The translations under genes were made by a program, and so were the position numbers. This document shows positions 1 through 20,485 of a DNA stretch of 64,000 nucleotides, piece by piece. Below the pieces are notes generated by a model. It did not search any database. It worked only from the letters and a program-made list of their open reading frames with translations, and had not been told where the DNA came from. The DNA is from an uncultured Rhizobiaceae bacterium (GTDB lineage: Bacteria; Pseudomonadota; Alphaproteobacteria; UBA7879; VGCX01). The DNA lies in NCBI GenBank assembly GCA_964350815.1, contig CAYGKW010000001.1, forward strand, positions 156,120-220,119. The letters are read 5' to 3'. The first letter of the stretch is position 1. Each line of letters starts with the position of its first letter.

Positions 1-40
1 TTTTGAACACTTATGATTTCACACAAATGGAACCTTGGCC

Positions 41-1129: not shown

Positions 1130-1130
1130 A

Positions 1131-5325: not shown

Positions 5326-5566
5326 TTATTGTTTTAAGTTTATACTCTACCATAAGGTATTTTATATGTTAATAAATAGTGTTATAGTTAGACTTAAGAG
5401 CACTGCAGATTTTATGTCACACTATAGTGGTAAAAATGCTACAAAACGAAAAAAATACAAAAAAATTAGTATTTTACGTTTACACTAAGACCTAAAAGTG
5501 GCAATCTGTGTTGTAGAAGTAACAAGTCTTATGACTTAAGAAACAATAAACTGGGAGAGTCTCGAT

Positions 5567-6124
5567 ATGGCTGAAAGTACTCAACATAAGTTAGACCGCG
5601 TACGCCCTCCGCGCGTACAAATTACATATGACGTAGAAGTCGGTGATGCAATTGAAATGAAAGAATTGCCTTTCGTTGTAGGTATCATGGCTGATCTTTC
5701 TGGGGACAGAGACCCCGAAAAGGCAATGAAAGCACTTAAAGAACGTAAATTCACAGAAATTGACCGTGATAACTTTAATGATATTATGGCTGACATTACA
5801 CCAAGAGCAGCAATGCGTGTTGAAAACCGCCTTGGTGGTGGTGAAGAAAATGAAGACAGTTCCTTAAGTGTTGCTCTTAACTTTAAAAACATGGAAGATT
5901 TTGATCCGGTAAACATTATTAAACAAGTTGAGCCTATGCGCAAACTATACGAAGCGCGCACTAAGCTTAGTGACCTTATGTCAAAGCTTGACGGTAATGA
6001 TGACTTGGAAGGCATGCTTCAAGATGTTCTTGAAAACACCGAAGTTCGCGAAGAAGTTAAAAAGAACTTAGGTGAAGTTAAGAAGGACGAAGGTGGCGAA
6101 GAAGACGCTAAGCCTAAAAAGTAG
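5567..6124 (+). CDS. tssB: T6SS contractile sheath small subunit TssB (VipA)
   Basis: 185 aa with the canonical N-terminus ...PPRVQITYDVEVGDAIEMKELPFVVGIMADLSGD. Followed directly by tssC. Confidence 0.88.
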   Translation: MAESTQHKLDRVRPPRVQITYDVEVGDAIEMKELPFVVGIMADLSGDRDPEKAMKALKERKFTEIDRDNFNDIMADITPRAAMRVENRLGGGEENEDSSLSVALNFKNMEDFDPVNIIKQVEPMRKLYEARTKLSDLMSKLDGNDDLEGMLQDVLENTEVREEVKKNLGEVKKDEGGEEDAKPKK

Positions 6125-6177
6125 GTTGAACAATAAATAAAAGTAACATACGCTAGTCTTAATATAGGGAGGGCAAA

Positions 6178-7659
6178 ATGGCTGATGAAAAAAAAGCACA
6201 AGGTCAGGCAGCTGAAGGCCAAGAAAACCTAACGGTTTTAGACCAGATTATTCAAAAAGGAAAACTGGCCCGCGACGAAGAACAACTTGTTTATGCACAA
6301 GATATGGTGGATGAATTTGTTGAACAGATTCTTCAAGCAGGGGATACAGTTAGCAACAACACAATTTCATTCATTAACAAGCGCATTCAAGAAGTTGACT
6401 TGCTATTAAGTCAACAGTTAGATGAAATCTTACACCATGAAAACTTTCAAAAAGTGGAAGCAACATGGCGCGGGATGAATTATCTTGTTATGAATTCAGA
6501 AACAAGTACGAAACTTAAACTACGTGTTTTCAACGTTTCCAAAAAAGAACTTCGCGATGATCTTGAAAAAGCAGTAGAATTTGATCAAAGCGTTCTTTTC
6601 AAGAAAATTTACGAGGAAGAATATGGAACATTCGGGGGGAACCCTTATTCATGTCTGGTTGCAGATTATGAATTTGGACCTATTGCCCCAGACATGTCAC
6701 TTCTAACAAAATTGTCAAACGTTGCAGCAGCGGCACATGCCCCTGTGATTTCAGCAGCATCACCTACTTTGTTTGACATGGATGACTTTACTGATTTAGG
6801 TAAGCCTCGTGATTTGGCCAAAATCTTTGAAGGAACAGACAAAATCAAATGGCGTTCATTCCGTGAAAGCGAAGATTCACGTTATGTTGTATTAACAATG
6901 CCACGTGTTTTGATGCGTCTTCCTTACGGGCCGAACACGAATCCTGTAGAAGGCTTGAACTATGAAGAAGTTGTTGATGGTACAACATTAAAAACTTTCA
7001 CATGGGGAAACCCATCTTACATGATGGCACAAAGAATTACTGATGCTTTCGCGAAATATGGCTGGACAGCGGCAATCCGCGGTGTTGAAGGTGGGGGTCT
7101 TGTTGAAGGCTTACCAAGTTACACTTTCAAAACAACTGATGGTGATTTGGCTTTGAAATGCCCAACACAAATTGCAATTACTGACCGTCGTGAAAAGGAA
7201 TTAAGTGATCTTGGCTTCATTTCATTATGTCACTGTAAAGGAACTGACAAAGCGGCTTTCTTTGGTGGGCAAACTGTTCAAAAACCAAAGAAATACAATA
7301 CGCCACAAGCGAATGCGAATGCTGCAACATCTGCACGCATCCCATATTTGCTGGCGGCGTCACGCTTTGCGCATTACATTAAGTCAATCATGCGGGATAA
7401 AATTGGGTCCTTTATGACTCGTGATCAAGTTCAACGCTATTTGCAAACTTGGATCTCTCAGTATGTATTGTTAAATGATGATGCATCACAATCAATGAAA
7501 GCTCGCTTCCCACTTCGTGAAGCCCGTATTGATGTATTTGATGTACCAGGCGAACCTGGAAAATTCCGTGCAACAGTATTCTTAAGGCCGCACTTCCAAT
7601 TGGAAGAATTGACAGCGTCCATCAGGCTTGTTGCTGAATTGCCTCCACCTGCAGGTTGA
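6178..7659 (+). CDS. tssC: T6SS contractile sheath large subunit TssC (VipB)
   Basis: 493 aa that matches the TssC family along its full length (LMRLPYGP, GWTAAIRGVEGGG...). Confidence 0.9.
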   Translation: MADEKKAQGQAAEGQENLTVLDQIIQKGKLARDEEQLVYAQDMVDEFVEQILQAGDTVSNNTISFINKRIQEVDLLLSQQLDEILHHENFQKVEATWRGMNYLVMNSETSTKLKLRVFNVSKKELRDDLEKAVEFDQSVLFKKIYEEEYGTFGGNPYSCLVADYEFGPIAPDMSLLTKLSNVAAAAHAPVISAASPTLFDMDDFTDLGKPRDLAKIFEGTDKIKWRSFRESEDSRYVVLTMPRVLMRLPYGPNTNPVEGLNYEEVVDGTTLKTFTWGNPSYMMAQRITDAFAKYGWTAAIRGVEGGGLVEGLPSYTFKTTDGDLALKCPTQIAITDRREKELSDLGFISLCHCKGTDKAAFFGGQTVQKPKKYNTPQANANAATSARIPYLLAASRFAHYIKSIMRDKIGSFMTRDQVQRYLQTWISQYVLLNDDASQSMKARFPLREARIDVFDVPGEPGKFRATVFLRPHFQLEELTASIRLVAELPPPAG

Positions 7660-7716
7660 TCCTAGATCAGCCCAGGTTGGCGATTATGTGGAATAGAATA
7701 AGAACATAGGTGTAAG

Positions 7717-8247
7717 ATGAAGAACGATATAGTTGTAATGATGGTTGAAAATGTTGACGCAATGTGTGGAAGCGTCAAGTACGAAGGATATGCAAGAGGA
7801 ATTCGTCTTCTTGAATTTCCTGAAGTCCAAACCATTAACTCTGCAGAAGCATCCCACAGTATCGGAATTCGTCCAAACAACGGGGAATGTTTACCCATTA
7901 CTGTACGCACACACTATGACAAAAGTGTTCCTAAAGGCCTTGAAGCCATGGTTAAAGGTACAAACCTAACGAAGATTAGTATTTTCCACCTTGTATCAAC
8001 TGGCGGAGACACACTTACCTTAAATAGGTATATTGAAATGTCAGATGTTTATTTAATTAAATACAGCCTGCACTATTTTGATGCATTTAACCACGAATCA
8101 CCGCAAGGTGGGGTTGCCACATACACATTTAAATTTGATGAGTTTTCATCTGTTGCCAATGTGTTTGATGATCAAATGCAAGAACAAGGTAAAACTGGTT
8201 ACATGACCAACAATACAAAACGCTTAACAGGTAACACAGGCGGATAA
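7717..8247 (+). CDS. hcp: Hcp (T6SS inner tube protein)
   Basis: 176 aa, the right size for Hcp. N-terminus MKNDIVVMMVENVDAMCGSVKYEGYARGIRLLEF.. follows the Hcp pattern. Sits between tssC and tssE. Confidence 0.6.
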   Translation: MKNDIVVMMVENVDAMCGSVKYEGYARGIRLLEFPEVQTINSAEASHSIGIRPNNGECLPITVRTHYDKSVPKGLEAMVKGTNLTKISIFHLVSTGGDTLTLNRYIEMSDVYLIKYSLHYFDAFNHESPQGGVATYTFKFDEFSSVANVFDDQMQEQGKTGYMTNNTKRLTGNTGG

Positions 8248-8271
8248 TTTTTTTAAAAAGCGGAGTAAGCC

Positions 8272-8928
8272 ATGGTAGAAAGACCATACAATTCATTAGA
8301 AAGCAGTCAAGTTAACGATGGGCAGATTGTTGCCTCTCCTACGTGTTTACTAACTTCAACAGTTCATGAAGGTGGGGTTAGCGTTGGAACTATTGAAAAT
8401 GCACATGAAGTATTTTATTACTTTATTTCTGCTTCCCGTGCATCATTACCTGGGTATCATGGACTTCATGAATCCACAGCAAAGATTCGTTTTAGTGCTT
8501 TGAACATTGCATTACACAACAACAGCTATACAGAACCTTTCATGAAGGCTGTATACAGTGGGGCAAGTATTGGGGATATTGAAATCACAAGTCTTCAACA
8601 CTCTGGTGAAGAATCTTTACCAAGCTTCACAATGCAATACAAAAATTGTCGCCCAGTAAGCGGTAAAGTTTCCAGATTAAACGTTGGCGGTCGCTTAGGT
8701 GAAAATGTCATGAGTCGTGGGCATTATGAAGATCGCCTTGATATTGTCAATCGTTCTGTTGATGCAGATGATCCGTATAATCGCACAGCAGAAGTTACAG
8801 CATGTTGCCTTAAAATTCTTTTTGATCAGGTATCCATTGTTTATCATGCATTAACTGAAACTGGTGAAGTTGACGGTCAAATTGCAGGTGGATTTAACTT
8901 GGTTAAAAACACAACAGAGCTTGAATAA
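8272..8928 (+). CDS. Hypothetical protein, possibly a divergent second Hcp-like paralog
   Basis: 218 aa. The central and C-terminal segments (PFMKAVYSGASIGDIEITSLQHSGEE...; TAEVTACCLKILFDQ) resemble Hcp beta-strand patterns. Embedded in the T6SS operon. Confidence 0.3.
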   Translation: MVERPYNSLESSQVNDGQIVASPTCLLTSTVHEGGVSVGTIENAHEVFYYFISASRASLPGYHGLHESTAKIRFSALNIALHNNSYTEPFMKAVYSGASIGDIEITSLQHSGEESLPSFTMQYKNCRPVSGKVSRLNVGGRLGENVMSRGHYEDRLDIVNRSVDADDPYNRTAEVTACCLKILFDQVSIVYHALTETGEVDGQIAGGFNLVKNTTELE

Positions 8929-8935
8929 ATAGGTC

Positions 8936-9493
8936 GTGGCAAGAAAGTGGACAGACAAAGGGGCAGATGCCCCCTTATTCGACAAGCTTCGTGATGAAAA
9001 TCCACAAACCAAAGAAGAACATCCTATCTTTAAAAAATATGATCGCAAGGAACTTTTAGTATCTGTACAACAAGAAGTTTCAAACATCTTAAACACCCGT
9101 TGTAAAATGCCATACGAAGAGTACAAAAATTTGGATCCTTCTGATCTAGAGTATGGATTTCCTGAACTATTTGGCCTGCCTGACCAATCTTATGCTGACC
9201 CACGATCCCCAGAAGGGGCAGATAAAATGGCAGATTTAATTGCCAATGCCATTGAAATATTTGAACCTAGGTTAGCAAATATTTCTATCGAAATACAAGA
9301 TTTCCACAAACAAAATCAATCTTTATCTGTTGGTGTCAGTGGAGATTTAGTGATAGGGGAAATACGCGAACCAATTTCATTCCCTGTTTCTGTTCAAGAC
9401 TATGGATCTGTCGCAACGCAAGAAAAAGTTGGGTATGACACAACTGCCAAAATAGAGTATAATAAAAATGATTCTGAGGGGGCAGATGAATGA
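8936..9493 (+). CDS. tssE: T6SS baseplate protein TssE (gp25-like)
   Basis: Carries the LFDKLRDE, ILNTR, FGLPD and FEPRL motifs typical of TssE. Apparent GTG start. Its 3' end overlaps tssF. Confidence 0.8.
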   Translation: MARKWTDKGADAPLFDKLRDENPQTKEEHPIFKKYDRKELLVSVQQEVSNILNTRCKMPYEEYKNLDPSDLEYGFPELFGLPDQSYADPRSPEGADKMADLIANAIEIFEPRLANISIEIQDFHKQNQSLSVGVSGDLVIGEIREPISFPVSVQDYGSVATQEKVGYDTTAKIEYNKNDSEGADE

Positions 9494-11298
9494 ATGACTT
9501 TCACGAAAAACATTTACAGTATTATCAGCGTGAAATGTCCTTCCTACGTAAAATGGGGGGCATCTTTTCTGCCAAATACCCTAAAATTGCCAAACGTCTT
9601 GGCCTTAGTGATACAACTGCGTCAGACCCGCATGTTGAACGACTCATTGAATCTTTTGCCTATCTAACTTCCTATTTACAAAAAGATATAGACAACCAAT
9701 TTCCACGCATTTCATCCGCGTTATTAAATACATTATACCCCCAGCAAGTAAGCTTGATTCCGCCCATGAGTATTTGCCAATTTGAACCGGACCCAGAGGC
9801 TGGATTAACAACTGCCTACGATATTCCACGAAACTTTTCCATGTATGTTGAAGGCGATACAGGGGATGTCAGCCGATTTAAAACAGCCTACCCTGTTGAA
9901 ATGTGGCCTATTAAAGTAACTGATATTGCCATGGTAAAATCAAATCTTTATGATCTTGGGGAAGAGCTGACAAAGCATACTTATGTTTTACGCATTAAAT
10001 TAAAATCTTTATCCGAAGATTTAAGTATCTTAAATTTAAAAAAACTTCGGTTTTTTATTAACATGCCGCGTGCACAAGCGAATGTTTTGTATCAACTTTT
10101 GTTTGAAGAATCTATGAAAATTGGTGTGGTTGGGGCAGATGATAAACCAGCCTATATCACCCCAAAGGATAGTATTTCACAAGTTGGGTTCTCGCCTGAT
10201 GAATCTGTTTTACATGTTCCCAAAAATGGACACCCGGCCTATGCCCTTTTACAGGAATACTTCTTATTTCAAAAAAAGTTTATGTTTTTTGATATTGATA
10301 ACCTAAATTTCAACAACGCCGGACAAACAGCAGAAATTTTAATTCCTTTGTGTCATTCACAAGATGCCAAAAGTTTGGTTTTTGGGGAACGATCCCTTCT
10401 TTTAAATTGCAGCCCTATTGTTAATTTATTTTATAAAACATCTGAACCCATTCGCCTGGATCACCAACGTGTTGAATATCGTTTAATTGCTGACCATCGG
10501 CGTGAAATGACAACAGAAATTCACAGCATTGACCGTGTCTTTTGTTCAGGGGAAGAGGAAAAAGACACAATTGAAATTGATCCTTATTTTTCATACAACC
10601 ATCATTCTTTAAGCGAAGATAAAATGGGGTTTTGGCATGCACGACGGGTCCCTGCAGCAAATAAAAACATACCCGGAACAGATATGCAAATTTCTTTTGT
10701 AAACTTAAATTTTTCACCAAATAGTCCCCCTGTTGATGTGGCTTATGCCCGGGTTTTGTGTACAAACCGACAACTTGCGCCGACTGTCCCTGCGAATGCA
10801 ATTTTAAATGAAGATGAGGGAACCCCAACCAAGTCTATACGTTGTTTATATCAACCTACTGATACAACATATCCTTCCGAAGAAGGGGCAACCCAATGGC
10901 AATTGATATCCCAACTTGCTTTGAATTATTTATCTTTGTCTAACAATGAAAAAAGCTTGGACGCCTTAAAGGAAATGTTACGCTTGTATTCCGGTGGCGG
11001 GAAAAAAATTAATGATGTTGAAATTAACAGCATGATAAAAATGGATTGCGAACCAATTGTTCGCCGATTTGGAAAAGATGCTTGGCGCGGTTTTACAAAA
11101 GGAACATCTGTCACCCTTACAGTTGATGAAGGTGCCTCTGCAAGCTTAGGATCTTTCTTATTTTCATCTGTGCTTGCCCATTTTTTTGGTTTATATACAA
11201 CCATAAATTCTTTTGTAGAGGTATCTATTAAAAGCACACGACGGGAAGGAGTATGGAAAAAATGGCCACCGATCGCCGGCGCACAAGAACTTCTGTAG
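9490..11298 (+). CDS. tssF: T6SS baseplate protein TssF
   Basis: 602 aa with an N-terminus YYQREMSFLRKMGGIFSAKYPKIAKRL typical of TssF. Lies between tssE and tssG. Confidence 0.8.
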   Translation: MNDFHEKHLQYYQREMSFLRKMGGIFSAKYPKIAKRLGLSDTTASDPHVERLIESFAYLTSYLQKDIDNQFPRISSALLNTLYPQQVSLIPPMSICQFEPDPEAGLTTAYDIPRNFSMYVEGDTGDVSRFKTAYPVEMWPIKVTDIAMVKSNLYDLGEELTKHTYVLRIKLKSLSEDLSILNLKKLRFFINMPRAQANVLYQLLFEESMKIGVVGADDKPAYITPKDSISQVGFSPDESVLHVPKNGHPAYALLQEYFLFQKKFMFFDIDNLNFNNAGQTAEILIPLCHSQDAKSLVFGERSLLLNCSPIVNLFYKTSEPIRLDHQRVEYRLIADHRREMTTEIHSIDRVFCSGEEEKDTIEIDPYFSYNHHSLSEDKMGFWHARRVPAANKNIPGTDMQISFVNLNFSPNSPPVDVAYARVLCTNRQLAPTVPANAILNEDEGTPTKSIRCLYQPTDTTYPSEEGATQWQLISQLALNYLSLSNNEKSLDALKEMLRLYSGGGKKINDVEINSMIKMDCEPIVRRFGKDAWRGFTKGTSVTLTVDEGASASLGSFLFSSVLAHFFGLYTTINSFVEVSIKSTRREGVWKKWPPIAGAQELL

Positions 11299-12311
11299 TA
11301 GAGCGTGCTTATAAAGACGCAGATAAATTTGAATTTCATGCAATGGTCAAATTGTTGGAAAGCATGGAGAAAGACTGTACCCCTTTAGGCGAAGGCCCAG
11401 ATCCAACAAAAGAAGCATTACGCCTGCAAGCGCGTGTTGCCGAAGGGTTTCCAAACACAGATATTTTTAAACTTATTGACCCCAAAACAAAAGAAATTCC
11501 ACCTTTATTGATAACTAATTTCTTGGGCATTGCTGGGGCACATGGCCCCTTGCCTTCCCCTTATACCCAGCAGATAATAGAACGTACATCAAGACGTGAT
11601 ACAGGGTTCAGAGATTTTATTGATATCTTTAATCATCGGTTAATATCTTTATTACATCGCATACGAAAAAAACATTGGATTGGCATTTCCAACCAGCCTT
11701 CAGAAGAATCCTTAATGGGAAAATGTTTGAAGGCTTTACTTGGAATCTTTAACCCTTATTTAGAAGACCGCTTAGGTGTTCCTGACCAAAGCTTAACACA
11801 TTATGCCGGTTTATTATGGCAACGCCCTAGATCTGCATTTGGACTACGTCAACTTCTTGAAGGTTTTTTTCGAATGCCTGTTGAAGTTCAAGAATTGAAA
11901 GGCAAATGGAATTTTGTACCCCACGACCAACTTACAAGTATTGGAAGTCAGGGAAAATTTAATGTGCTTGGGCAATCTGCCGTTATTGGCTCAAGGTTTT
12001 GGGATCAACAAGCCCTATTCACTGTAAAAATTGGCCCAATGGATTTAGATCAGTATGTTGACTTCTTGAAACCTGGAAAATCATGGCGTACAATCTGTAG
12101 TATAATTCGATATTATGTAGGTAATGATCAAGATTTCATGATAAACTTAGTTTTAAAAAAAGAACAGGTTCCAAAGCCCAGGCTGGGTTATGGTGTTGCT
12201 ATTGGATGGACAAACTGGTTGAATCGCACAAAAACTGAATCCTATATAGATGATAATCAATGCCAATTAACAACACGTTCTTTTAAAGTTTCAGCAGGAG
12301 GCCATAATTAA
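11253..12311 (+). CDS. tssG: T6SS baseplate protein TssG
   Basis: N-terminal FEFHAMVKLLE motif, equivalent to FDFFQAVRLLE in TssG. Overlaps the tssF 3' end, so the start may be at 11262 instead. Confidence 0.75.
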   Translation: MEKMATDRRRTRTSVVERAYKDADKFEFHAMVKLLESMEKDCTPLGEGPDPTKEALRLQARVAEGFPNTDIFKLIDPKTKEIPPLLITNFLGIAGAHGPLPSPYTQQIIERTSRRDTGFRDFIDIFNHRLISLLHRIRKKHWIGISNQPSEESLMGKCLKALLGIFNPYLEDRLGVPDQSLTHYAGLLWQRPRSAFGLRQLLEGFFRMPVEVQELKGKWNFVPHDQLTSIGSQGKFNVLGQSAVIGSRFWDQQALFTVKIGPMDLDQYVDFLKPGKSWRTICSIIRYYVGNDQDFMINLVLKKEQVPKPRLGYGVAIGWTNWLNRTKTESYIDDNQCQLTTRSFKVSAGGHN

Positions 12312-14974
12312 TGCAAAATTTACAATCTTTAATTGGAAACTTAAACACAACTTGCAAAAGATGTTTGGAAGAATCTGCACAATTATGTATTACCAATACA
12401 AATGCAACTGTTGATATTGAACATTTACTATTTCAAATTCTGGAAAAGCCTGCAACGGATCTTTCTGTTATTGCAAAATACTATGAAATTGATTTAAAGC
12501 GTGCAAAGCAACAGCTTCAAAATGCAATAAATGATTTCAAACGTGGCAACAATAAAACACCTTCCATGTCTGCTCAGTTAGTTAAATTATTGGAAAGGGC
12601 GTGGGTTATCACTTCCTTGAATCTGAAACAAACTCAGGTACGCTCAGCCGCGATATTAATGGCGATTTTAAAAACTGAAGAATTATTAGGCGTAATTGTA
12701 AATAGCTGCCAAGAATTATTAAAAATTCCACGTAATAAACTGGAAGAAGATATTCTAGAATTAATTAAATCCAGCCCAGAAGATGTAGGGGAAGGAAATT
12801 TAAGCAGCAATACAGGGGGCAGCAAAAGCAGTTCTTCTGATGGAAAATCCCCGACGCAAGCCTTGGATAAATTTACAATTGATCTTACACGCCAAGCCCG
12901 TGAAGGGAAAATTGATCCCATTGAAGGGCGTGATTCAGAAATCCGCCAGATGCTGGATGTTTTGGGACGCCGGCGTCAAAACAACCCCATTTTAACAGGG
13001 GATGCAGGTGTTGGGAAAACAGCAGTTGTTGAAGGCCTTGCCTTGCGCATTGCAAATGGGGATGTTCCTGATAGTTTGAAAAAAGTAAGCATTCGCACTT
13101 TGGATCTTGGTTTACTTGAAGCCGGGGCTGGTATGAAAGGTGAATTTGAAAACAGGCTGAAATCCGTTATTCAAGAAGTACAAAGTTCTTTAACCCCAGT
13201 TATTTTGTTTATTGATGAAGCCCATACATTAATCGGCGCCCAACAAAATGCCCAAAATGATGCAGCCAACCTTTTAAAGCCTGCTTTGGCCAGGGGTGAA
13301 TTGCGAACGATTGCTGCAACCACTTGGGATGAATATAAAAAATTCTTTGAAAAAGACGCAGCCCTTACCCGTCGTTTCCAAGTTATAAAAGTTGAAGAGC
13401 CTGACGAAGAAACAGCTGTGAAAATGTTGCGCTGTTTAACAGAAAAGTTAGAACACCATCACAAAGTTTTGATACTGGATTCTGCCATTAAAGATGCTGT
13501 TCGTTTGTCCACTCGATATATTGGGGGCCGCAAATTACCAGACAAGGCAGTCAGTGTTTTAGATACTGCCTGCGCACGCGTACACTTAGCACAAAACGCA
13601 ACCCCTGAAGCCGTTGAAACATTAACCCGTGATTTGGAACTTTTAGAAATTGAAAAATCACGCTTACAAAAAGAAGAATTAAGTGGCCATGTTCACCAAG
13701 ATCGATTGGCCCAAATTTCTGTCGATGCGCAAACAAAACAAAAAGAATTGGATGAGGTAAAAAAAACTTGGGAAGAAGAATTAAACCTTGTAAAAGAAAT
13801 TAACCAACTTCACAACAACATCTTAGAAATAAATGAAAAAAATGGCCCTGACCATCACGACCTAAAAGATTTAAAAATAAAAATCAGTAAACTTAAAAAA
13901 GATTTGGAAACCAAACAAGGGGAAAAAGGGTTGGTCCCTGCATGTGTTGATGGCAATGTTGTTGCCCAAGTTGTTGCAGGGTGGACGGGCATTCCTTTAG
14001 GTAAAATGTTGCGCGATGAAATCAATACCGTGTTAACCTTAAAAGATATTATGGCCAATCGCTTGATCGGGCAAAAACAAGCTGTGGATACCATTGCAAA
14101 ACATATTGTGACATACCGTGCAAACTTAGATGAGCCTGGAAAACCAGTAGGCGTCTTTTTATTAGTTGGACCCAGCGGTATTGGGAAAACAGAAACAGCC
14201 TTGGCTTTGGCTGACACACTATATGGCGGGGAACGAAATCTTGTCACCATTAACATGTCTGAATACCAAGAATCTTATACTGTTTCTTCTTTGAAAGGGT
14301 CGCCTCCCGGATATGTAGGATATGGTGAAGGGGGTGTTCTGACCGAAGCCGTCAGACGCAACCCATACAGCGTTGTTCTTTTAGATGAAATTGAAAAAGC
14401 CCACCCGGACGTAATGGAATTATTCTATCAAGTTTTTGATAAAGGAATCTTGGAAGATGCAGAAGGTATTGAAATTGATTTTAAAAATACCGTTATTTTA
14501 ATGACAACCAATTTGGCATCTGAAACCATTATGAAGGAATGCAAAAATCCGAAAAAAATGCCGGATGCCAAGAAGGTTTCAGATACCATTCGTCCTGAAT
14601 TGGCTGCCCATTTTAAACCTGCTTTGCTTGGGCGCATGACAATTGTTCCGTATTATCCTTTAACAAGTGAAGAAATATCTGAAATTGTAAAACTTAAATT
14701 GGATCGCATCAAAAGTCGATTTGAAGGAAATCATGGGGCTGACTTTTCTTACAGCAAAGATGTCATTAAATTCATCACAGATCGATGTGATGATCCTGAT
14801 TCCGGGGCACGTAATATTGATTACGTTATTAACCAAAACTTACTTCCCCTTTTATCTGCAGAAGTTTTAAAACATATTGCTGATGAAACACCCTTTGGCA
14901 GTATAAAAGTTTCCATCAAACGGGATGAATTTATATGTGATTTTGAGGCATCAAAAATTGCAAACAAAGCTTAA
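12311..14974 (+). CDS. clpV: T6SS AAA+ ATPase ClpV (TssH)
   Basis: 887 aa with two Walker A motifs (GDAGVGKTAV and GPSGIGKTE) and ClpB-like architecture. Its ATG overlaps the tssG stop. Confidence 0.9.
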   Translation: MQNLQSLIGNLNTTCKRCLEESAQLCITNTNATVDIEHLLFQILEKPATDLSVIAKYYEIDLKRAKQQLQNAINDFKRGNNKTPSMSAQLVKLLERAWVITSLNLKQTQVRSAAILMAILKTEELLGVIVNSCQELLKIPRNKLEEDILELIKSSPEDVGEGNLSSNTGGSKSSSSDGKSPTQALDKFTIDLTRQAREGKIDPIEGRDSEIRQMLDVLGRRRQNNPILTGDAGVGKTAVVEGLALRIANGDVPDSLKKVSIRTLDLGLLEAGAGMKGEFENRLKSVIQEVQSSLTPVILFIDEAHTLIGAQQNAQNDAANLLKPALARGELRTIAATTWDEYKKFFEKDAALTRRFQVIKVEEPDEETAVKMLRCLTEKLEHHHKVLILDSAIKDAVRLSTRYIGGRKLPDKAVSVLDTACARVHLAQNATPEAVETLTRDLELLEIEKSRLQKEELSGHVHQDRLAQISVDAQTKQKELDEVKKTWEEELNLVKEINQLHNNILEINEKNGPDHHDLKDLKIKISKLKKDLETKQGEKGLVPACVDGNVVAQVVAGWTGIPLGKMLRDEINTVLTLKDIMANRLIGQKQAVDTIAKHIVTYRANLDEPGKPVGVFLLVGPSGIGKTETALALADTLYGGERNLVTINMSEYQESYTVSSLKGSPPGYVGYGEGGVLTEAVRRNPYSVVLLDEIEKAHPDVMELFYQVFDKGILEDAEGIEIDFKNTVILMTTNLASETIMKECKNPKKMPDAKKVSDTIRPELAAHFKPALLGRMTIVPYYPLTSEEISEIVKLKLDRIKSRFEGNHGADFSYSKDVIKFITDRCDDPDSGARNIDYVINQNLLPLLSAEVLKHIADETPFGSIKVSIKRDEFICDFEASKIANKA

Positions 14975-14984
14975 AAGTTAACAA

Positions 14985-17552
14985 ATGGCTGGACTTATTT
15001 CCCAAGAAAATACCTATCTGACCATCACAACAAAATTGGGTGCAGATAAAATTATCCTTAATCATTTTAAGGCTGAAGAAAAATTAAATGGGCTTTTTGA
15101 ATTTAATTTAGAACTTTATATCCCATATGCCACGGATGCCAAAAATTATGACTTAGACTTTACAAAACTTATTGAAACTGAAGTTACCATTACCCTGACT
15201 TTAGGAAAAAAAATACGTTACTTTCATGGATTAATTACTGAATTAATACAAGGTCCGACAGTTGCAACTGGGATGGAAAAAATGCAACGCACCCATGAAC
15301 GGACTTATTTTTATGCCAAAGTACATCCCACGGCCTGGTTAATGCAATTAACTGAAAACTGTGAAATTCATCAAAATAAATCGGCGATGGATATTATTAA
15401 AGAATTGTTAGGCAAACATAAAATTACTTTTAAAGACCTAACATCCAAGCGCGGAAAATTAAAACGCGAATACTGTGTTCAATATAACGAAAGTGATTTT
15501 GCCTTTATTTCAAGATTAATGGAAAATGAAGGCATTTATTATTTTTTCAAACATGAAAAAGCCAAACACACGATGTATCTTGCTGACGGCGGGAAACCTT
15601 GGGAGAAGCATACGGACAAAGATTTAGCAACTGTTACAGTTTATAACACCCAACACCCAACACCTGTACAATTCAGTCTGTACGATATGCGTGTATCAAA
15701 ACAAATTGTTCCTTCAAGCTTTACTTATAATGATTATGATTTTGAAAAACCGACCACTAAATTAAAGGCAGAATCAAAAGGCGAAGGAAAAGGTCGGGAT
15801 TATTATCACTATCCAGGGAAATATATTGTACAAAAAAATGGGATGGCTCTGACGGATATGCGTTTAGAATCCCTTGAATACCCATCTGATGCCATCCATT
15901 CAAAATCAGATATTCCTATGTTTGAAATTGGCCATTCTTTTAAATTGGATAATGCCTTAAGAAAAGATATTAACAAAAAAGAATTTGTTATTTTTTCTAT
16001 TCACCATGAAGCCAAAATTCAAGCAGAACCTGATGAAAATAATGAAGGGGAAAAGCTTGTAAAAACAGAATATGATGGCGAAGTTGTTTATGAAAACAAG
16101 GTTTGCTTTTTCAGCAAAGACCTTCCTTACCGTCCCGCACTAAAAACTCCGTGCCCAAAAATTCACGGCACCCAAACGGCAACCGTTTCTGGTAAAGCCG
16201 GTGAAGAAATTTGGACAGATAAGTATGGTCGTGTTCTTCTTAAGTTTCATTGGGATCTAAGCCCCACAAAAGATGATAAAGTTTCGTGCTTTGTCCGTGT
16301 TTCCCAGGCCTGGACAGGCAAACAATGGGGGGTTTTGTTTACCCCACGTGTCGGCCAAGAAGTTGTTGTCACATACCTAAATGGGAACCCTGACAAACCC
16401 CTGGTGACTGGGTGTGTTTATAATGGGGATAACCTTCCCCCCTATTTACCGGCTGAAAAAACGAAAAGCACCATTAAAACAAATACAAGCCCTAAAGGTG
16501 GTGGTTTTAACGAATTACGATTTGAAGATAAAAAAGACGCTGAGGAAGTTTTTATCCATGCCCAAAAAGATTACAACACAACTGTTTTAAATGGGGAACG
16601 TACTGTTACAATTGAAGGTGCTGAAGATTGTGGCCATGATAAATTAACCATTCGCAAAGGGGATCGTACCTTTTTAATTGAGGAAGGCAGTCAATCCGAT
16701 ACCTTAAAAAAAGGGGACAAGTCCACCCTTCTTGAAAAAGGTAATGATACAGAAACATTAAAAGATGGAAATCAAACCATTACCCTTGAAAAAGGGAACC
16801 AAGCAACAACCCTGAAAAAAGGAAATCAATCTGTTACCTTAAAAGGGGGCAATCAAGAAATTGATATCAAAGGAAATCAAACTGAAACCATTTCTGGAAA
16901 TCAAACCGTCACAATAAAGGGGAATAGAAAAGTTTCAGTTACTGGCAATGATACTTTATCCGTTAAAGGAAATATGACCGTTGATGTTATGGGAAATATT
17001 ACAGCCAAAGCAAAAGGTAATGTTACAATTGAGGCCATGGGCATGATCAATATTAAAACACCAACTGGTATGATAACAGTTGAAGGAGGCATGATCACTG
17101 CAAAGTCCAAGATGCTTACGACAGACACACAAGGTCCTGCAACACACAGTGCCATGATGATGACGATAGAATCAAAAGGACCTTTGGCAATGAAAGGATC
17201 CCCTATTGCAATTGGCGCACCAATGATGACAATGGCAGCCGGCGGATCTGCCGCAATGACAACGGATACTGGCGGTGGTCTTGAAATGGGTGGCGGTGGA
17301 GATGTTGGCTTAAGTTCAACAGGCCCCATGAAAATGAGCAGTACCGCGCCCGCAAAAATGGATAGTCCCGCTGGTGTAAAAATTTCTTCTGGTGCAAGTT
17401 CTATTGACTTAAAGGCAGCAATGGGCACAATTAAATCTGCTATGTTAACGGTTGAAGGTTCTGGAATGATGGCAGTAAAAAGTGGTGGGATGTTAAATGT
17501 TCAAAGTGGTGGATTGGTTAATATTAAAGGCTCAATGGTAATGATAGGATAA
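14985..17552 (+). CDS. vgrG: VgrG spike protein with a C-terminal gp5-like beta-helix
   Basis: 855 aa. N-terminal gp27/gp5 region, then reiterated (T/S)xKGNQ/GNxT octapeptide-like repeats at aa 560-700 that form a beta-helix, then a Gly/Met-rich tail. Confidence 0.85.
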   Translation: MAGLISQENTYLTITTKLGADKIILNHFKAEEKLNGLFEFNLELYIPYATDAKNYDLDFTKLIETEVTITLTLGKKIRYFHGLITELIQGPTVATGMEKMQRTHERTYFYAKVHPTAWLMQLTENCEIHQNKSAMDIIKELLGKHKITFKDLTSKRGKLKREYCVQYNESDFAFISRLMENEGIYYFFKHEKAKHTMYLADGGKPWEKHTDKDLATVTVYNTQHPTPVQFSLYDMRVSKQIVPSSFTYNDYDFEKPTTKLKAESKGEGKGRDYYHYPGKYIVQKNGMALTDMRLESLEYPSDAIHSKSDIPMFEIGHSFKLDNALRKDINKKEFVIFSIHHEAKIQAEPDENNEGEKLVKTEYDGEVVYENKVCFFSKDLPYRPALKTPCPKIHGTQTATVSGKAGEEIWTDKYGRVLLKFHWDLSPTKDDKVSCFVRVSQAWTGKQWGVLFTPRVGQEVVVTYLNGNPDKPLVTGCVYNGDNLPPYLPAEKTKSTIKTNTSPKGGGFNELRFEDKKDAEEVFIHAQKDYNTTVLNGERTVTIEGAEDCGHDKLTIRKGDRTFLIEEGSQSDTLKKGDKSTLLEKGNDTETLKDGNQTITLEKGNQATTLKKGNQSVTLKGGNQEIDIKGNQTETISGNQTVTIKGNRKVSVTGNDTLSVKGNMTVDVMGNITAKAKGNVTIEAMGMINIKTPTGMITVEGGMITAKSKMLTTDTQGPATHSAMMMTIESKGPLAMKGSPIAIGAPMMTMAAGGSAAMTTDTGGGLEMGGGGDVGLSSTGPMKMSSTAPAKMDSPAGVKISSGASSIDLKAAMGTIKSAMLTVEGSGMMAVKSGGMLNVQSGGLVNIKGSMVMIG

Positions 17553-17556
17553 AATT

Positions 17557-18525
17557 ATGACAAAAAATATTTCCCCAGAATTTTTAGAAAAACTTCGTCT
17601 GATACGTAAAAAAAACGAAGTTGATAAAACCAATGAAAATGACATCAATAGTGTTGAATCTTATAATGCTTATGATGTCGTTGATAAAGTTGATCTTCCC
17701 GAAGGGTTTGACCCTGGTGAAGCAGAAGAAAATGCACAAGAAGAAAGTCTTGAGGGTCCTTTCCCACCTGACATGACCCAGGCCCCAAAGAACCCTGCTG
17801 CTGAAAAGAAAGAGGAGGATATAGATCCAAATGCCTTGGATTCAGGGTATCAAGAAATCAAAGATGCTGATGACAATATCATTCAAAAAATTCCCTATGA
17901 GAATAAAAAAATCCATGGAGATGTCGAAATTTTTGATAGCCAAGGAAATCTTATTCAAACCATACCCTACAATCAGGGAATAATTGAAGGTGTTTCAAAA
18001 GCATACAACAGTGATGGTAATATAATGCAAGAAGTTACCTTCAAGGCTGGTCAAAAAAATGGTCGGGGGATTTTTTATAATAATGGTGTCAAAGCAGCGG
18101 AGATGGTTTATGAAAATGATGAAATTAATGGGCCTTCTGTTTTTTATACACCAAGCGGTGGAATAAGCACCATTTGTTATTATAAAGATAGTTTAATGCA
18201 TGGCGAAATGACAGCTTATGATGATAAAAAAGCGATTGTAAAAAAAACCATGTATGAAGAAGGAAAAATGCATGGCCCTTCGTATGTCTATTATCCCAGC
18301 GGTCAAATTTTTGAAGAAGCTTATTATGAAAAGGATCAACTATCTGGCAAAGTTCTTAATTATTATGAAAATGGAGAAGTTCTTTCAGAAAAAAAATATG
18401 AAGAAGGTAAATTAATTTCAGAATTAAGATACGACACAAATGGCAAACGGACAGATGATAATGAATATGAAGGGGACTATCCCAAATCAGCCCGCAATGC
18501 CTTAAAAGATATTGAAGGATCATAA
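17557..18525 (+). CDS. MORN-variant / YwqK-family repeat protein; VgrG-linked cargo, adaptor or immunity candidate
   Basis: 322 aa with an acidic N-terminal region and then about 8 tandem Y..NG...E.-type repeats (YENGEVLSEKKYEEGKLISELRYDTNGK). Starts 4 nt after the vgrG stop. Confidence 0.5.
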   Translation: MTKNISPEFLEKLRLIRKKNEVDKTNENDINSVESYNAYDVVDKVDLPEGFDPGEAEENAQEESLEGPFPPDMTQAPKNPAAEKKEEDIDPNALDSGYQEIKDADDNIIQKIPYENKKIHGDVEIFDSQGNLIQTIPYNQGIIEGVSKAYNSDGNIMQEVTFKAGQKNGRGIFYNNGVKAAEMVYENDEINGPSVFYTPSGGISTICYYKDSLMHGEMTAYDDKKAIVKKTMYEEGKMHGPSYVYYPSGQIFEEAYYEKDQLSGKVLNYYENGEVLSEKKYEEGKLISELRYDTNGKRTDDNEYEGDYPKSARNALKDIEGS

Positions 18526-18912
18526 ATGCCACAACTTACATCTACAGGGGGTCTTGCAAAATGCATTTTTGGGGTGGCGCCAAGCCCCCTAAACTTTTTA
18601 CCTGTCTATAAGGTTATGGCAACAACACCTGTTGGAAATATTAATGATTTCAAACCATTTGCAAATATTATTCCTTTTGGAATGTGCATGAGCCCGGGAA
18701 ATCCTGCAGTTATTGCTGCCACGGCCGCTGCGTTGGGTGTGCTGACACCGATGCCCTGCACCCCTAATATTTCAACTCCCTGGATACCTATGGCCCCCAC
18801 AAAAATGGTTGGGAATATGCCGGTTGTACCGTCTACCAGCATGCAAATATGTAAATTTGGGGGACTAGTTACCATTACTTTTCCAGGACAAGTCACTGTA
18901 CAAGTAAGCTAG
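18526..18912 (+). CDS. PAAR-like DUF4280 family protein
   Basis: 128 aa with the conserved PFGMC, NPAV and PCTP pattern of DUF4280 (PAAR-like). Its ATG overlaps the stop of the preceding gene. Confidence 0.55.
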   Translation: MPQLTSTGGLAKCIFGVAPSPLNFLPVYKVMATTPVGNINDFKPFANIIPFGMCMSPGNPAVIAATAAALGVLTPMPCTPNISTPWIPMAPTKMVGNMPVVPSTSMQICKFGGLVTITFPGQVTVQVS

Positions 18913-18963
18913 CATTTCTTCAAAATTAATGATAATTTATTATGTATAGAAATATAATTCATT

Positions 18964-19947
18964 ATGAAAAGATTAACAAAAACATTATTTATCGGAACTG
19001 GTTTTTTAGCTGCAGGGTTATATCTTGCAAGCAACTTTAATGATCCTCAAAATCCTTCTGTCATGTCCACCCTTAAACACGTCAGTGTTGCTGTGCGTAA
19101 TGCACTTCAGCAGTATGTGAAATTTTCTGATGATGGGGTGTCTATTGGTAAGCAAGAAAAAAAACAAGAAAAATACAGCCCTACTGATATAAGAAGCGCC
19201 ACACATATGGATGATGATGAAGTAACAGATGCCCAAAAGTTTTTCAATCGTCTTGCCGGTTTAGATCCAGAGGAATTGGCTAAGCAAAAAGAAGATAAAA
19301 AGAAAGCAGAAGAAGAGGCCCTAAAAGCAGCGGAAGAGGCTGCAAAAAAAGAAGGGGAAACAGCCGAAGATAAAGATGCAGGAGAAGAACTTCCCGAATC
19401 ACTTTGGCCCATGAAGCGTAAACGTAAAGGTATTATTGAAATTACCGGACACAAAACTGGGGCAGTATATAATAAAGGAGCCCTTCCTTATGGCCCACCC
19501 CCTTTTGTTAAGTCTGAAATTTTTTCTGATGAAGCGCGCCTACAAATTTATAATGATCCAGAAGCAGAAACATCTAAAAAAATAAAAATAGAGGATCAAG
19601 ATGAAATTAACTATGGGCCAGATTCTATTATTAACATAACTGATCAAAAACCATTTCCTGATAAAATTAAGGCTCCACTTATGCAGCATGGAGATGCATA
19701 TACGGTTCAGCTTGGCGCTTATGAAACAAAAAATGATGCACGTAAAATGGCTGATAAATTGGTTACCAAAGGATTTAATGCAGGGGTTTACCAAGGCGAC
19801 ACATCCCATAACAACTGGTATTTTGTTAGATTAAATTCAAAAGAAACTGAACAAGAAGCAATGGATCACGCCCAAGAAATTATGGAACAACATGGTATTT
19901 TCCCCCTTGTTGTCCCCACTAAAAAAGAAGAACGTAGAATACAGTAG
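18964..19947 (+). CDS. Membrane-anchored SPOR-domain protein (FtsN/DedD-like architecture)
   Basis: N-terminal TM (LFIGTGFLAAGLYLA), a Glu/Lys-rich linker and a C-terminal SPOR-like segment (YTVQLGAYETKNDARKMADKLVTKGFNAGVY...WYFVRL). Confidence 0.5.
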   Translation: MKRLTKTLFIGTGFLAAGLYLASNFNDPQNPSVMSTLKHVSVAVRNALQQYVKFSDDGVSIGKQEKKQEKYSPTDIRSATHMDDDEVTDAQKFFNRLAGLDPEELAKQKEDKKKAEEEALKAAEEAAKKEGETAEDKDAGEELPESLWPMKRKRKGIIEITGHKTGAVYNKGALPYGPPPFVKSEIFSDEARLQIYNDPEAETSKKIKIEDQDEINYGPDSIINITDQKPFPDKIKAPLMQHGDAYTVQLGAYETKNDARKMADKLVTKGFNAGVYQGDTSHNNWYFVRLNSKETEQEAMDHAQEIMEQHGIFPLVVPTKKEERRIQ

Positions 19948-19957
19948 AGGTCTTAAA

Positions 19958-20485
19958 ATGAAAAAATTATGGATTTTATTATTTGTTTTAACAGCAGGAT
20001 GTGAAACCGTCACAAACTATGTCTTTGAAGATACAGACATTGAATTTATTGATGAATTAACATTGATAGGGTCTAAAAATATGAACAACAGAAAACCCCT
20101 TCGTGTTGATTTTGTCGTTGTGAAGCACCCTGTCGTTGCCCAACAAATAGGGCGCATTTCAGCTGATAACTATATGCGTAATCGCAAGCAGTTAAAACAA
20201 GACTATCCAAAACATATTAAGTTTAATTCTTATGAACTTGTCCCAGGCCAATCAATTGTTAAAGATTTAAGTTACCCTAAGAAAGATGTGGTTGCTGCCT
20301 TTATCTTTGCAGATTTTGACAATGAAAACGTAAACCGTTGGTCCATTTTTTCTGCTGATCATGTTGTTGTGAAATTTCTGGAAAACACCTTAAAAATCAC
20401 GTCCCGCAATCAAGGTGAAGAAGAAAAAATTAAACCTAGACAATTATCTGAGGATATTGTGATTATTGAAAGTAACCCCTTATAG
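19958..20485 (+). CDS. Lipoprotein, TssJ candidate
   Basis: Lipobox in MKKLWILLFVLTAGC, with the start reassigned to the internal ATG at 19958. About 175 aa. Segments RVDFVVVKHPVVAQQ and AAFIFADFDNEN resemble TssJ. Last gene of the T6SS block. Confidence 0.4.
   Translation: MKKLWILLFVLTAGCETVTNYVFEDTDIEFIDELTLIGSKNMNNRKPLRVDFVVVKHPVVAQQIGRISADNYMRNRKQLKQDYPKHIKFNSYELVPGQSIVKDLSYPKKDVVAAFIFADFDNENVNRWSIFSADHVVVKFLENTLKITSRNQGEEEKIKPRQLSEDIVIIESNPL

What the first reader, a model, noticed from the sequence alone, without database searches (positions are those of the whole stretch)
5567..20485. T6SS-i core cluster lacking the tssK, tssL, tssM and tssA genes
The gene order is tssB-tssC-hcp-(hcp-like)-tssE-tssF-tssG-clpV-vgrG-(repeat protein)-(PAAR-like)-(SPOR protein)-(lipoprotein). 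The sheath, tube, wedge (TssEFG), ClpV and spike are all present. No membrane-complex (TssL, TssM) or TssK/TssA gene is encoded anywhere in the block or in the 64-kb window. Either the system is split across the genome or it uses non-canonical anchoring; the terminal SPOR protein and TssJ-like lipoprotein may be relevant.
Basis: seen in the sequence. Interest (0 to 1): 0.6.

Follow-up and report, generated by a model that had tools for sequence, protein, structure and literature searches.

The report
Split type VI secretion gene cluster
This is an intact main gene cluster of a bacterial type VI secretion "nano-harpoon" from an uncultured marine alphaproteobacterium, and its four missing anchoring and assembly genes are most likely encoded elsewhere in the genome, as already described for related symbiotic bacteria, so the finding is fairly ordinary.

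Summary
Positions 5567-20485 (+) encode TssB, TssC, Hcp, an Hcp-like paralog, TssE, TssF, TssG, ClpV, VgrG, a MORN/YwqK protein, a DUF4280 PAAR-like protein, a SPOR protein and a lipoprotein. No TssK, TssL, TssM or TssA was found in the 64 kb, by Pfam on the long ORFs or by six-frame tblastn.

One correction: the terminal lipoprotein is TssJ. Its eight best PDB fold matches are all TssJ, so one membrane-complex gene is present.

All 13 genes are under strong purifying selection. The layout recurs in independent assemblies and in relatives.

TssF places the cluster in a lineage of alphaproteobacterial and Holosporaceae MAGs whose T6SS genes are routinely scattered. For related Holosporales families, a separate tssJ-tssK-tssL-tssM-tssA locus is published.

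A contiguous archetype (TMED82 MAG) runs tssB-C-hcp-E-F-G-vgrG-MORN-DUF4280-tssJ-tssK-L-M-A. The window is collinear with it and stops right after tssJ.

Best reading (about 0.77): a functional split T6SS-i whose K-L-M-A block lies elsewhere in the genome. I could not locate that block in this genome, so the step is inferred.

A conserved divergent VWA-PP2C-kinase-zinc-ribbon operon is a candidate regulator. Interest is low to moderate.

The parts
41..1129 (-). 362-aa protein with two N-terminal CxxC...CxxC zinc-ribbon motifs and an unknown C-terminal domain. Last gene of the divergent operon.
   Evidence: No Pfam, NCBIfam or PADLOC family at E<=0.01; only weak zinc-ribbon hits. Orthologs sit in the same position in L006 (32% id) and L012 (24% id). 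Not TssA-like (hhalign prob 0.1%). The AF2 single-sequence model is unusable (pLDDT 31).
1131..3896 (-). 921-aa Ser/Thr protein kinase: N-terminal Pkinase domain and a roughly 600-aa uncharacterised C-terminal region, with no predicted TM helix.
   Evidence: PF00069 E 8e-11. No hydrophobic segment at the threshold used. Orthologs lie next to tssB in L006 (41% id) and L012 (32% id).
3897..4637 (-). PP2C-family protein phosphatase (246 aa from the ATG used in the Logan gene call).
   Evidence: PF13672 E 2e-37. dN/dS 0.10 against L002.
4639..5310 (-). Small von Willebrand factor A (TerY-like) protein. First gene of the operon transcribed divergently from tssB.
   Evidence: PF00092 E 3e-9. 64-65% identical orthologs in L006 and L012. 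dN/dS 0.03. No PADLOC hit.
5567..6124 (+). TssB (VipA), small sheath subunit.
   Evidence: PF05591 E 2e-54. dN/dS 0.028.
6178..7659 (+). TssC (VipB), large sheath subunit.
   Evidence: PF05943 E 2e-131 plus PF18945. dN/dS 0.015.
7717..8247 (+). Divergent Hcp (TssD) tube protein.
   Evidence: PF05638 E 2e-7, 31.5 bits against a cut-off of 23.5. TIGR03344 is below threshold.
8272..8928 (+). Hcp-like paralog ('X', 218 aa), conserved between hcp and tssE across the clade.
   Evidence: hhalign of the X family against the cluster's Hcp family: prob 93.7%, E 2e-7. The L006 ortholog hits PF05638 at E 0.0011; the window protein at E 0.11. dN/dS 0.047.
8936..9493 (+). TssE (gp25-like baseplate wedge).
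   Evidence: PF04965 E 3e-11. TIGR03357 E 3e-20, above cut-off.
9490..11298 (+). TssF baseplate subunit.
   Evidence: PF05947 E 3e-175. Defines the alphaproteobacterial/Holosporaceae clade.
11253..12311 (+). TssG baseplate subunit.
   Evidence: PF06996 E 9e-82.
12311..14974 (+). ClpV (TssH), AAA+ sheath-recycling ATPase.
   Evidence: AAA_2, AAA_lid_9, AAA and ClpB_D2-small domains. Clp_N in the precomputed hits. dN/dS 0.06.
14985..17552 (+). VgrG (TssI) spike.
   Evidence: TIGR03361 E 8e-159. Phage_GPD, Phage_base_V and Gp5_trimer_C domains.
17557..18525 (+). MORN_2-repeat (YwqK-family) protein that always follows vgrG in this T6SS type. It evolves fast and is a possible adaptor, immunity or cargo protein.
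   Evidence: PF07661 E 2e-19. Same position in L002, L006, L010, L017, L104 and L135. 48% identity and dN/dS 0.26 against L002. The ywqK-vgrG pairing is described in PMC8163844.
18526..18912 (+). DUF4280 PAAR-like spike-tip protein (IglG-like).
   Evidence: PF14107 E 3e-22. NF041248 IglG E 2e-14, below cut-off.
18964..19947 (+). Membrane-anchored protein with a hydrophobic N-terminus, a conserved PYGPPP motif and a C-terminal SPOR peptidoglycan-binding domain. Probable accessory wall anchor.
   Evidence: PF05036 E 7e-11 at residues 245-317. Ortholog in L006. Not TssL-like. A SPOR gene also lies beside the T6SS in L136. dN/dS 0.11.
19955..20485 (+). TssJ outer-membrane lipoprotein (lipobox LTAG|C).
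   Evidence: AF2 model pLDDT 72. The eight best Foldseek PDB hits, the only ones with E <= 0.001, are all TssJ entries or chains: 3ZHN E 4e-6, 4A1R, 6IXH_A, 3RX9, 4Y7O_D. Its orthologs in L002 and L006 match the lipoprotein gene directly upstream of tssK in L017 and L104 (E 4e-13 and 2e-10). TIGR03352 E 0.006. dN/dS 0.10.

Best explanation
The block is the main locus of a functional canonical-type (T6SS-i) secretion system of an uncultured marine alphaproteobacterium. Its T6SS belongs to the lineage found in Holosporales-like bacteria.

The locus encodes:
- the contractile sheath (TssB/C);
- the tube (Hcp plus an Hcp-like paralog);
- the baseplate wedge (TssE/F/G);
- the spike (VgrG, a DUF4280 PAAR-like tip, and a MORN/YwqK partner);
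- the recycling ATPase ClpV;
- the outer-membrane lipoprotein TssJ;
- a SPOR peptidoglycan-binding accessory protein.

The four remaining essential genes, tssK-tssL-tssM-tssA, behave as one movable four-gene block in this T6SS type. They are inferred to lie at a second locus elsewhere in the genome and to be supplied in trans. TssJ would dock onto TssM. TssK would link the TssEFG wedge to TssL/M. TssA would prime sheath and tube polymerisation.

Shown: gene identities, intactness, selection, conserved synteny, collinearity with a contiguous archetype, and the published split arrangement in related families.

Inferred: that the K-L-M-A block exists in this particular genome, and that the divergent VWA-PP2C-kinase-zinc-ribbon operon regulates the system.
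For: 1. All 13 T6SS genes are intact. Against the 92% relative L002, dN/dS is 0.015-0.11 (MORN 0.26) with dS above 1.

2. The last gene is TssJ by fold. From established T6SS structural work, the only known role of TssJ is to bind the periplasmic domain of TssM. Its conservation therefore argues that TssM exists.

3. ClpV is retained, as expected for a system that recycles its sheath.

4. Identical boundaries appear in independent assemblies.
- L001 is 100% identical over window 1-17659.
- L002 has the same convergent tssJ/ligA junction.
- L006 (TssF 57%) has the same 17-gene layout, with no K/L/M/A within 10 kb.

5. In the same TssF clade the T6SS genes are visibly dispersed.
- L012 stops after tssG.
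- L013 has only tssF-tssG.
- L011 stops after clpV.

6. PMC8163844 states that in Bodocaedibacteraceae, Paracaedibacteraceae and Caedimonadaceae the core genes sit at four or more loci, including [tssK-tssL-tssM-tssA]. Its Supplementary Table 3 lists CPBP_00933-00937 as lipoprotein, TssK, TssL, TssM and TssA.

7. The contiguous archetype L135 runs tssB-C-hcp-E-F-G-vgrG-MORN-DUF4280-tssJ-tssK-L-M-A. The window is collinear with it up to tssJ.

8. The K-L-M-A block occurs at the other end of the cluster in L136 and L138. tssK-tssL-tssM occurs alone in L137. So the block moves as a unit.
Against: The second locus was not found for this genome. This is weak negative evidence, because the hit lists were truncated and the seed proteins were distant.
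- A TssK profile search listed its best 120 of 265 hits.
- A search of 50%-identity representatives listed its best 150 of 3889.
- No listed hit of the TssK profile search, and none of the 20 representatives checked, lies on a contig of the lengths known for this organism and its more than 90% identical relatives: 243,453, 418,546, 181,279 and 138,225 bp.
- So the block is probably not on those contigs.

At least one clade member, Holosporaceae CP060261, carries a visibly decayed cluster. Loss of the system does happen in the lineage.
Confidence: 0.77

Rival explanations
1. This lineage really lacks TssK, TssL, TssM and TssA. It runs a reduced contractile machine that is anchored or positioned by other parts, such as TssJ, the SPOR protein or unknown proteins, or that fires inside the cytoplasm. 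That would resemble the membrane-complex-free subtypes and cytoplasmic contractile injection systems.
For: No K/L/M/A appears within the 64-kb window, its 3.8-kb upstream flank, or 10 kb around the cluster in any of the nine clade contexts examined. No TssK was seen on the large contigs of close relatives. A clade-specific SPOR membrane protein and an extra Hcp-like gene are conserved.
Against: - TssJ has no known function without TssM, yet it is under purifying selection.
- The SPOR protein is not TssL-like, and a SPOR gene also accompanies a T6SS locus that carries tssK-L-M-A.
- Sister families with the same T6SS lineage do have K-L-M-A at a separate locus.
- From general knowledge, T6SS-i baseplates have not been shown to assemble without TssK or TssA.
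Confidence: 0.1
2. The cluster is a non-functional remnant of a T6SS that lost its membrane-complex genes and is on its way to decay.
For: Decayed versions exist in the clade: split tssG and a fragmented vgrG in Holosporaceae CP060261 (L004).
Against: - No frameshifts or stops occur in any of the 17 genes.
- dN/dS is 0.015-0.11 at saturated dS against L002.
- The layout is conserved down to 57% TssF identity.
Confidence: 0.05
3. The gap is an assembly or binning artefact: the missing genes were adjacent and were lost through a misjoin.
For: The source is a metagenome-derived contig.
Against: - The tssJ stop lies 2 bp from the convergent ligA stop.
- The same junction is present in the independent MAG L002 (LigA 74% identical), and L001 is 100% identical across the left part.
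- L006 also ends the cluster at tssJ.
Confidence: 0.02

Closest known systems
Dispersed T6SS of Holosporales endosymbionts (Ca. Bodocaedibacter vickermanii, Paracaedibacteraceae, Caedimonadaceae; PMC8163844, review PMC11909080)
   Same: - Same TssF lineage. Clade hits are named Holosporaceae or Alphaproteobacteria, and L013 shows the published isolated [tssF-tssG] layout.
- vgrG is paired with a YwqK/MORN gene.
- Hcp and TssJ are divergent and hard to detect.
- Core genes are not all in one locus, and K-L-M-A is separated from the sheath and baseplate genes.
   Different: - Here 13 genes remain in one operon-like block instead of four or more small loci.
- tssJ stays with vgrG rather than with tssK.
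- ClpV, a SPOR protein and a divergent VWA-PP2C-kinase operon are present.
- The organism is a marine, not strongly reduced bacterium: it carries mreBCD, LPS genes and TRAP transporter genes.
Contiguous archetype in 'Betaproteobacteria bacterium TMED82' (GCA_002170395.1, L135) and related AT-rich marine MAG loci (L017, L104)
   Same: Same order: tssB-C-hcp-(X)-E-F-G-(clpV)-vgrG-MORN-DUF4280-(SPOR)-tssJ. The lipoproteins are homologous.
   Different: - The archetype continues with tssK-tssL-tssM(1355 aa)-tssA, and it lacks clpV, the Hcp-like X and the SPOR gene.
- Protein identities are low (TssF 35%, VgrG 30%), so it is a related layout and not a close relative.
Pseudomonas aeruginosa H1-T6SS with the PpkA/PppA/Fha1 threonine-phosphorylation pathway (from general knowledge)
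   Same: Order tssB-tssC-hcp-tssE-tssF-tssG-clpV-vgrG, with a divergently transcribed operon that encodes a Ser/Thr kinase, a PP2C phosphatase and a VWA domain.
   Different: - In H1 the divergent operon also carries tssA, fha, tssJ, tssK, tssL, tssM and tagF.
- PpkA there is a membrane protein with a periplasmic VWA domain.
- Here the kinase has no predicted TM helix, the VWA is a separate small protein, and no FHA or TagF protein is present.
T6SS subtypes without TssJ/L/M homologs (Bacteroidota T6SS-iii, Amoebophilus T6SS-iv) and cytoplasmic or extracellular contractile injection systems (from general knowledge)
   Same: Contractile sheath, tube and baseplate genes without a recognisable TssL/TssM gene in the locus.
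   Different: The sheath, baseplate, ClpV and TssJ here are all of the canonical T6SS-i families. No subtype-iii or subtype-iv genes, or eCIS-specific genes such as a tape measure or tail fibres, were seen.

Membership tests
Canonical T6SS-i (13 core components TssA-M) | Sheath TssB/TssC of the VipA/VipB families | tested here: met
   PF05591 E 2e-54; PF05943 E 2e-131 plus PF18945.
Canonical T6SS-i (13 core components TssA-M) | Hcp tube and VgrG spike | tested here: met
   PF05638 above cut-off. TIGR03361 E 8e-159.
Canonical T6SS-i (13 core components TssA-M) | Baseplate wedge TssE, TssF, TssG | tested here: met
   TIGR03357, PF05947 and PF06996, all above cut-off.
Canonical T6SS-i (13 core components TssA-M) | ClpV/TssH ATPase | tested here: met
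   Two AAA+ modules plus Clp_N.
Canonical T6SS-i (13 core components TssA-M) | TssJ lipoprotein | tested here: met
   Lipobox present. The eight best PDB fold hits are all TssJ entries or chains. The sequence HMM gives only E 0.006.
Canonical T6SS-i (13 core components TssA-M) | TssK, TssL, TssM and TssA encoded in the genome | tested here: inconclusive
   Absent from the 64-kb window and its flank. The rest of the genome could not be read. Database searches with distant TssK seeds did not reveal a copy on this organism's known contigs.
Holosporales-type dispersed T6SS (PMC8163844) | Core proteins belong to the alphaproteobacterial/Holosporaceae T6SS lineage | tested here: met
   The 45 best TssF hits (92-45% identity) carry names in three cases only, all Alphaproteobacteria or Holosporaceae (P0013, P0026, P0034). 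Hits below about 47% identity carry names from other phyla. L013 shows the published tssF-tssG layout.
Holosporales-type dispersed T6SS (PMC8163844) | YwqK/MORN gene paired with vgrG | tested here: met
   MORN_2 gene directly after vgrG. Pairing described.
Holosporales-type dispersed T6SS (PMC8163844) | Separate tssK-tssL-tssM-tssA locus in the same genome | not testable with these tools
T6SS threonine-phosphorylation pathway (PpkA/PppA/Fha) | Ser/Thr kinase and PP2C phosphatase encoded next to the T6SS | tested here: met
   PF00069 and PF13672. Adjacency conserved in L006 and L012.
T6SS threonine-phosphorylation pathway (PpkA/PppA/Fha) | FHA-domain target protein (Fha/TagH), and a membrane-spanning kinase with a periplasmic VWA domain | tested here: not met
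   No FHA domain among the ORFs scanned with Pfam across the window. The kinase has no hydrophobic segment at the threshold used. The VWA is a separate protein with no evident signal peptide.
TerY-P anti-phage triad (vWA, PP2C, kinase) | Match to the curated defence-system models | tested here: not met
   PADLOC gave no hit for the VWA protein and only weak generic kinase and phosphatase hits. The three-domain gene set is the same.

The most novel reading that the evidence does not exclude
A whole clade of marine and symbiotic alphaproteobacteria keeps a selected, ClpV-recycled T6SS-i sheath, baseplate and spike, together with TssJ, without any TssK, TssL, TssM or TssA. The machine would be anchored through TssJ, the SPOR membrane protein and unknown partners. 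It would be controlled by the conserved VWA-PP2C-kinase-zinc-ribbon operon.
Probability: 0.08. Interest if true: 0.8.

Novelty: new member of a known kind. Interest (0 to 1): 0.27.

Why it matters
If the split reading is right, this is one more example of the scattered T6SS layout already reported for Holosporales-like alphaproteobacteria.

It is still useful in four ways:
- It shows a less fragmented intermediate, with 13 genes still together.
- It pins the breakpoint to just after tssJ.
- It identifies the 'missing' TssJ and Hcp of this lineage. These are divergent proteins that standard HMMs miss.
- It flags a conserved VWA-PP2C-kinase-zinc-ribbon operon as a candidate FHA-independent regulator.

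Only if complete genomes of the clade truly lack TssK/L/M/A would it become important. It would then be a canonical-type T6SS working without its membrane complex.

Tried and rejected
Attempts to find this genome's own tssK-L-M-A locus:
- The genome-contig scan with TssF gave only a 92% relative and a Pseudomonas locus.
- Nine neighbourhood look-ups of clade TssF proteins showed no K/L/M/A within 10 kb.
- A search with the lipoprotein, hoping to land on tssJ-tssK loci, found only nine close relatives.
- A degenerate, AT-biased DNA pattern for the TssK N-terminal motif (W-x-E/D-G-x-x-L-x-P-Q/H-H/Q-F/L-Q) was run on metagenome contigs. It returned 120 loci, nearly all true tssK genes. The ones sharing the MORN-DUF4280-tssJ context turned out to be a marine TMED/Burkholderiales-type system, not this clade.
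- A TssK profile was run against the 1.84-billion representative library. I then screened AT-rich hits by composition, cluster membership and context. None could be tied to this organism.

Tests of whether the hypothetical proteins are hidden core parts:
- unk362 against TssA: prob 0.1%.
- SPOR protein against TssL: prob 0.15%.
- tblastn of K/L/M/A seeds against the window found nothing.

Other dead ends:
- The unk362 structure from a single sequence had pLDDT 31 and is unusable.
- A PDB sequence search for unk362 found nothing.
- PADLOC gave no TerY-P match.
- The promoter and terminator scan was uninformative.
- A literature search for the run and assembly accessions gave no papers.

Full report
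**1. What is in the sequence**

- TssB (5567-6124), TssC (6178-7659), and a divergent Hcp (7717-8247; PF05638 above its gathering score);
- a 218-aa ORF with no family hit (8272-8928);
- TssE, TssF, TssG, ClpV and VgrG;
- a MORN_2-repeat protein and a DUF4280/IglG-like PAAR protein;
- a protein with a C-terminal SPOR domain;
- a small ORF whose real start (19955) gives a textbook lipoprotein signal, MKKLWILLFVLTAG|C.

A four-gene operon is transcribed divergently from tssB. It encodes a small VWA protein, a PP2C phosphatase, a 921-aa Ser/Thr kinase and a 362-aa protein with two zinc-ribbon motifs.

**2. Absence of tssK/L/M/A in the window**

- Pfam scans of 30 of the longer ORFs between 25 and 64 kb found only other genes: ligA, recN, bamD, sodB, ubiH, mreBCD-pbp2-rodA, an integrated island and sugar/LPS genes.
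- tblastn of TssK, TssL, TssM and TssA proteins from three AT-rich loci against all six frames gave nothing better than E 0.16. There are no pseudogene remnants.
- The 3.8 kb upstream of the window is housekeeping.

**3. The hypothetical proteins**

The lipoprotein was modelled with an alignment of nine homologs (pLDDT 72).
- Its eight best Foldseek hits in the PDB are all TssJ entries or chains: P. aeruginosa TssJ1 3ZHN (E 4e-6), Serratia Lip 4A1R, 6IXH_A, EAEC SciN 3RX9 and 4Y7O_D. The next hit drops to E 0.03.
- By BLAST, its orthologs in L002 and L006 match the lipoprotein gene that sits directly upstream of tssK in loci L017 and L104, and the window protein matches weakly (21-22%).
- It is TssJ, so one membrane-complex gene is present.

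The 218-aa protein is a distant paralog of the cluster's Hcp.
- hhalign gives prob 93.7%, E 2e-7.
- The L006 ortholog hits PF05638 at E 0.0011.

The SPOR protein is not TssL-like. The 362-aa zinc-ribbon protein is not TssA-like. None of the hypotheticals is a hidden TssK, TssL, TssM or TssA.

**4. Is the cluster alive and correctly assembled?**

- Against the closest genome hit (L002, an uncultured alphaproteobacterial MAG with TssF 92% identical), every T6SS gene is full length. dN/dS is 0.015-0.11 at saturated dS, and only the MORN gene reaches 0.26.
- An independent Logan assembly is 100% identical over window 1-17659.
- L002 shows the same convergent tssJ/ligA junction.
- A relative at 57% TssF identity (L006, GCA_945870825.1) has the same 17-gene layout, including the divergent operon, and ends at tssJ.

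The boundary is real and old, and the genes are under selection.

**5. Which lineage?**

- TssF homologs from 92% down to about 45% identity form a group. The few named members are Alphaproteobacteria or Holosporaceae MAGs. Hits below about 47% identity carry names from other phyla.
- Cluster membership shows that the window's contig is 243,453 bp. Relatives more than 90% identical occur in Tara and JGI marine data.
- Within the clade the T6SS genes are visibly scattered:
  - L012 keeps the divergent operon and tssB to tssG, then stops;
  - L011 stops after clpV;
  - L013 has only tssF-tssG;
  - several members replace clpV with a glycosyltransferase;
  - one Holosporaceae genome carries a decayed copy.

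**6. Precedent**

- Its Supplementary Table 3 lists CPBP_00933-00937 as lipoprotein, TssK, TssL, TssM (4272 bp) and TssA.
- A 2025 review calls the Holosporales T6SS conserved but non-standard, because some components escape detection. Other papers agree that it is widespread.

**7. A contiguous archetype**

A DNA-pattern scan for the TssK N-terminal motif recovered many tssK loci.
- In an AT-rich marine group (L017, L104, L135 = TMED82 MAG) the order is tssB-C-hcp-E-F-G-vgrG-MORN-DUF4280-tssJ-tssK-tssL-tssM-tssA. The window is collinear with this up to tssJ, with X, clpV and SPOR as extras, and lacks only the last four genes.
- Elsewhere the K-L-M-A block sits upstream of tssB (L136, L138). 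tssK-tssL-tssM stands alone among housekeeping genes in L137. The block therefore moves as a unit.
- L136 also has a SPOR gene beside a T6SS locus that carries tssK-L-M-A. This argues that SPOR proteins are accessory wall anchors, not substitutes for TssL/M.

**8. What could not be shown**

I did not find the K-L-M-A locus of this genome.
- The seeds I obtained belong to a different lineage, named Betaproteobacteria and Burkholderiales.
- The hit lists were truncated.
- None of the TssK proteins inspected lies on a contig of this organism or of an assembly known to carry the main cluster.

This is weak negative evidence. The split is therefore inferred, at about 0.77.

The alternatives are:
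- a system that truly lacks K-L-M-A, with non-canonical anchoring (about 0.10);
- a decaying remnant (about 0.05);
- an assembly artefact (about 0.02).

**9. The divergent operon**

- VWA, PP2C and kinase together carry the same domain content as the PpkA/PppA pathway of the P. aeruginosa H1-T6SS. That system also shares the tssB-C-hcp-E-F-G-clpV-vgrG order (general knowledge).
- The operon stays next to tssB in three lineages, even where the rest of the cluster is rearranged.
- However, there is no FHA or TagF protein and the kinase has no predicted TM helix. The VWA is a separate TerY-like protein, and defence-system models do not match.
- A regulatory link to the T6SS is plausible but untested.

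**10. Verdict**

This is a real, intact, selected T6SS-i main locus that includes TssJ. The missing K-L-M-A block is most likely elsewhere in the genome, in line with a published pattern in related bacteria. It is a new member of a known kind, of low to moderate interest.

Noticed in passing
window 35698-49798: An integrated island lies between tRNA-Lys(ctt) (35698-35773) and a tyrosine integrase (48623-49798, -). It carries a 2109-aa polymorphic toxin with a C-terminal Colicin-DNase/WHH nuclease domain (38258-44587, -), a SUKH/SMI1 immunity gene (37780-38271, -) and a primase/AAA_25 gene (45091-47073, -). GC is 42-46% against 35-39% around it. The toxin could be a contact-dependent or T6SS-delivered toxin.
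   Followed up: partly
window 41-5310 (- strand); L006 835-5975; L012 640-5827: An operon of VWA, PP2C, a 921-aa Ser/Thr kinase and a 362-aa double-zinc-ribbon protein is conserved divergently next to tssB in three lineages. It has no FHA or TagF partner and no PADLOC TerY-P match. It is a possible new T6SS regulatory module.
   Followed up: partly
L138 10001-21335 (also L139, L140; GCA_964516545.1): An unrelated compact T6SS carries a 603-aa DotU plus IcmF-N fusion (a very short TssL-TssM) and a 794-aa VipA-VipB (TssB-TssC) fusion protein.
   Followed up: no
L002 3089-4138 (-): In the 92% relative, a 349-aa Fic-like ORF (motif FEDGNKRTARM) is inserted between the PP2C and kinase genes of the divergent operon.
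   Followed up: no
window 17557-18525: The MORN/YwqK gene after vgrG evolves much faster than its neighbours: 48% amino-acid identity and dN/dS 0.26 against L002, compared with 72-97% and 0.015-0.11. It has an acidic, probably disordered N-terminal 100 residues. This fits an adaptor, immunity or cargo role better than a structural one.
   Followed up: partly
L137 8791-16938 (Logan SRR21396292): An isolated tssK-tssL-tssM locus, with a 1582-aa TssM, sits among flagellar and housekeeping genes of an unidentified 35% GC bacterium. Pfam detects no tssA. This is another example of a detached membrane-complex block.
   Followed up: no
L005 7594-8802; L008 12860-14011; L010 14224-15375: In several clade members a Glyco_transf_10 (fucosyltransferase-like) gene occupies the place of clpV between tssG and vgrG.
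   Followed up: no
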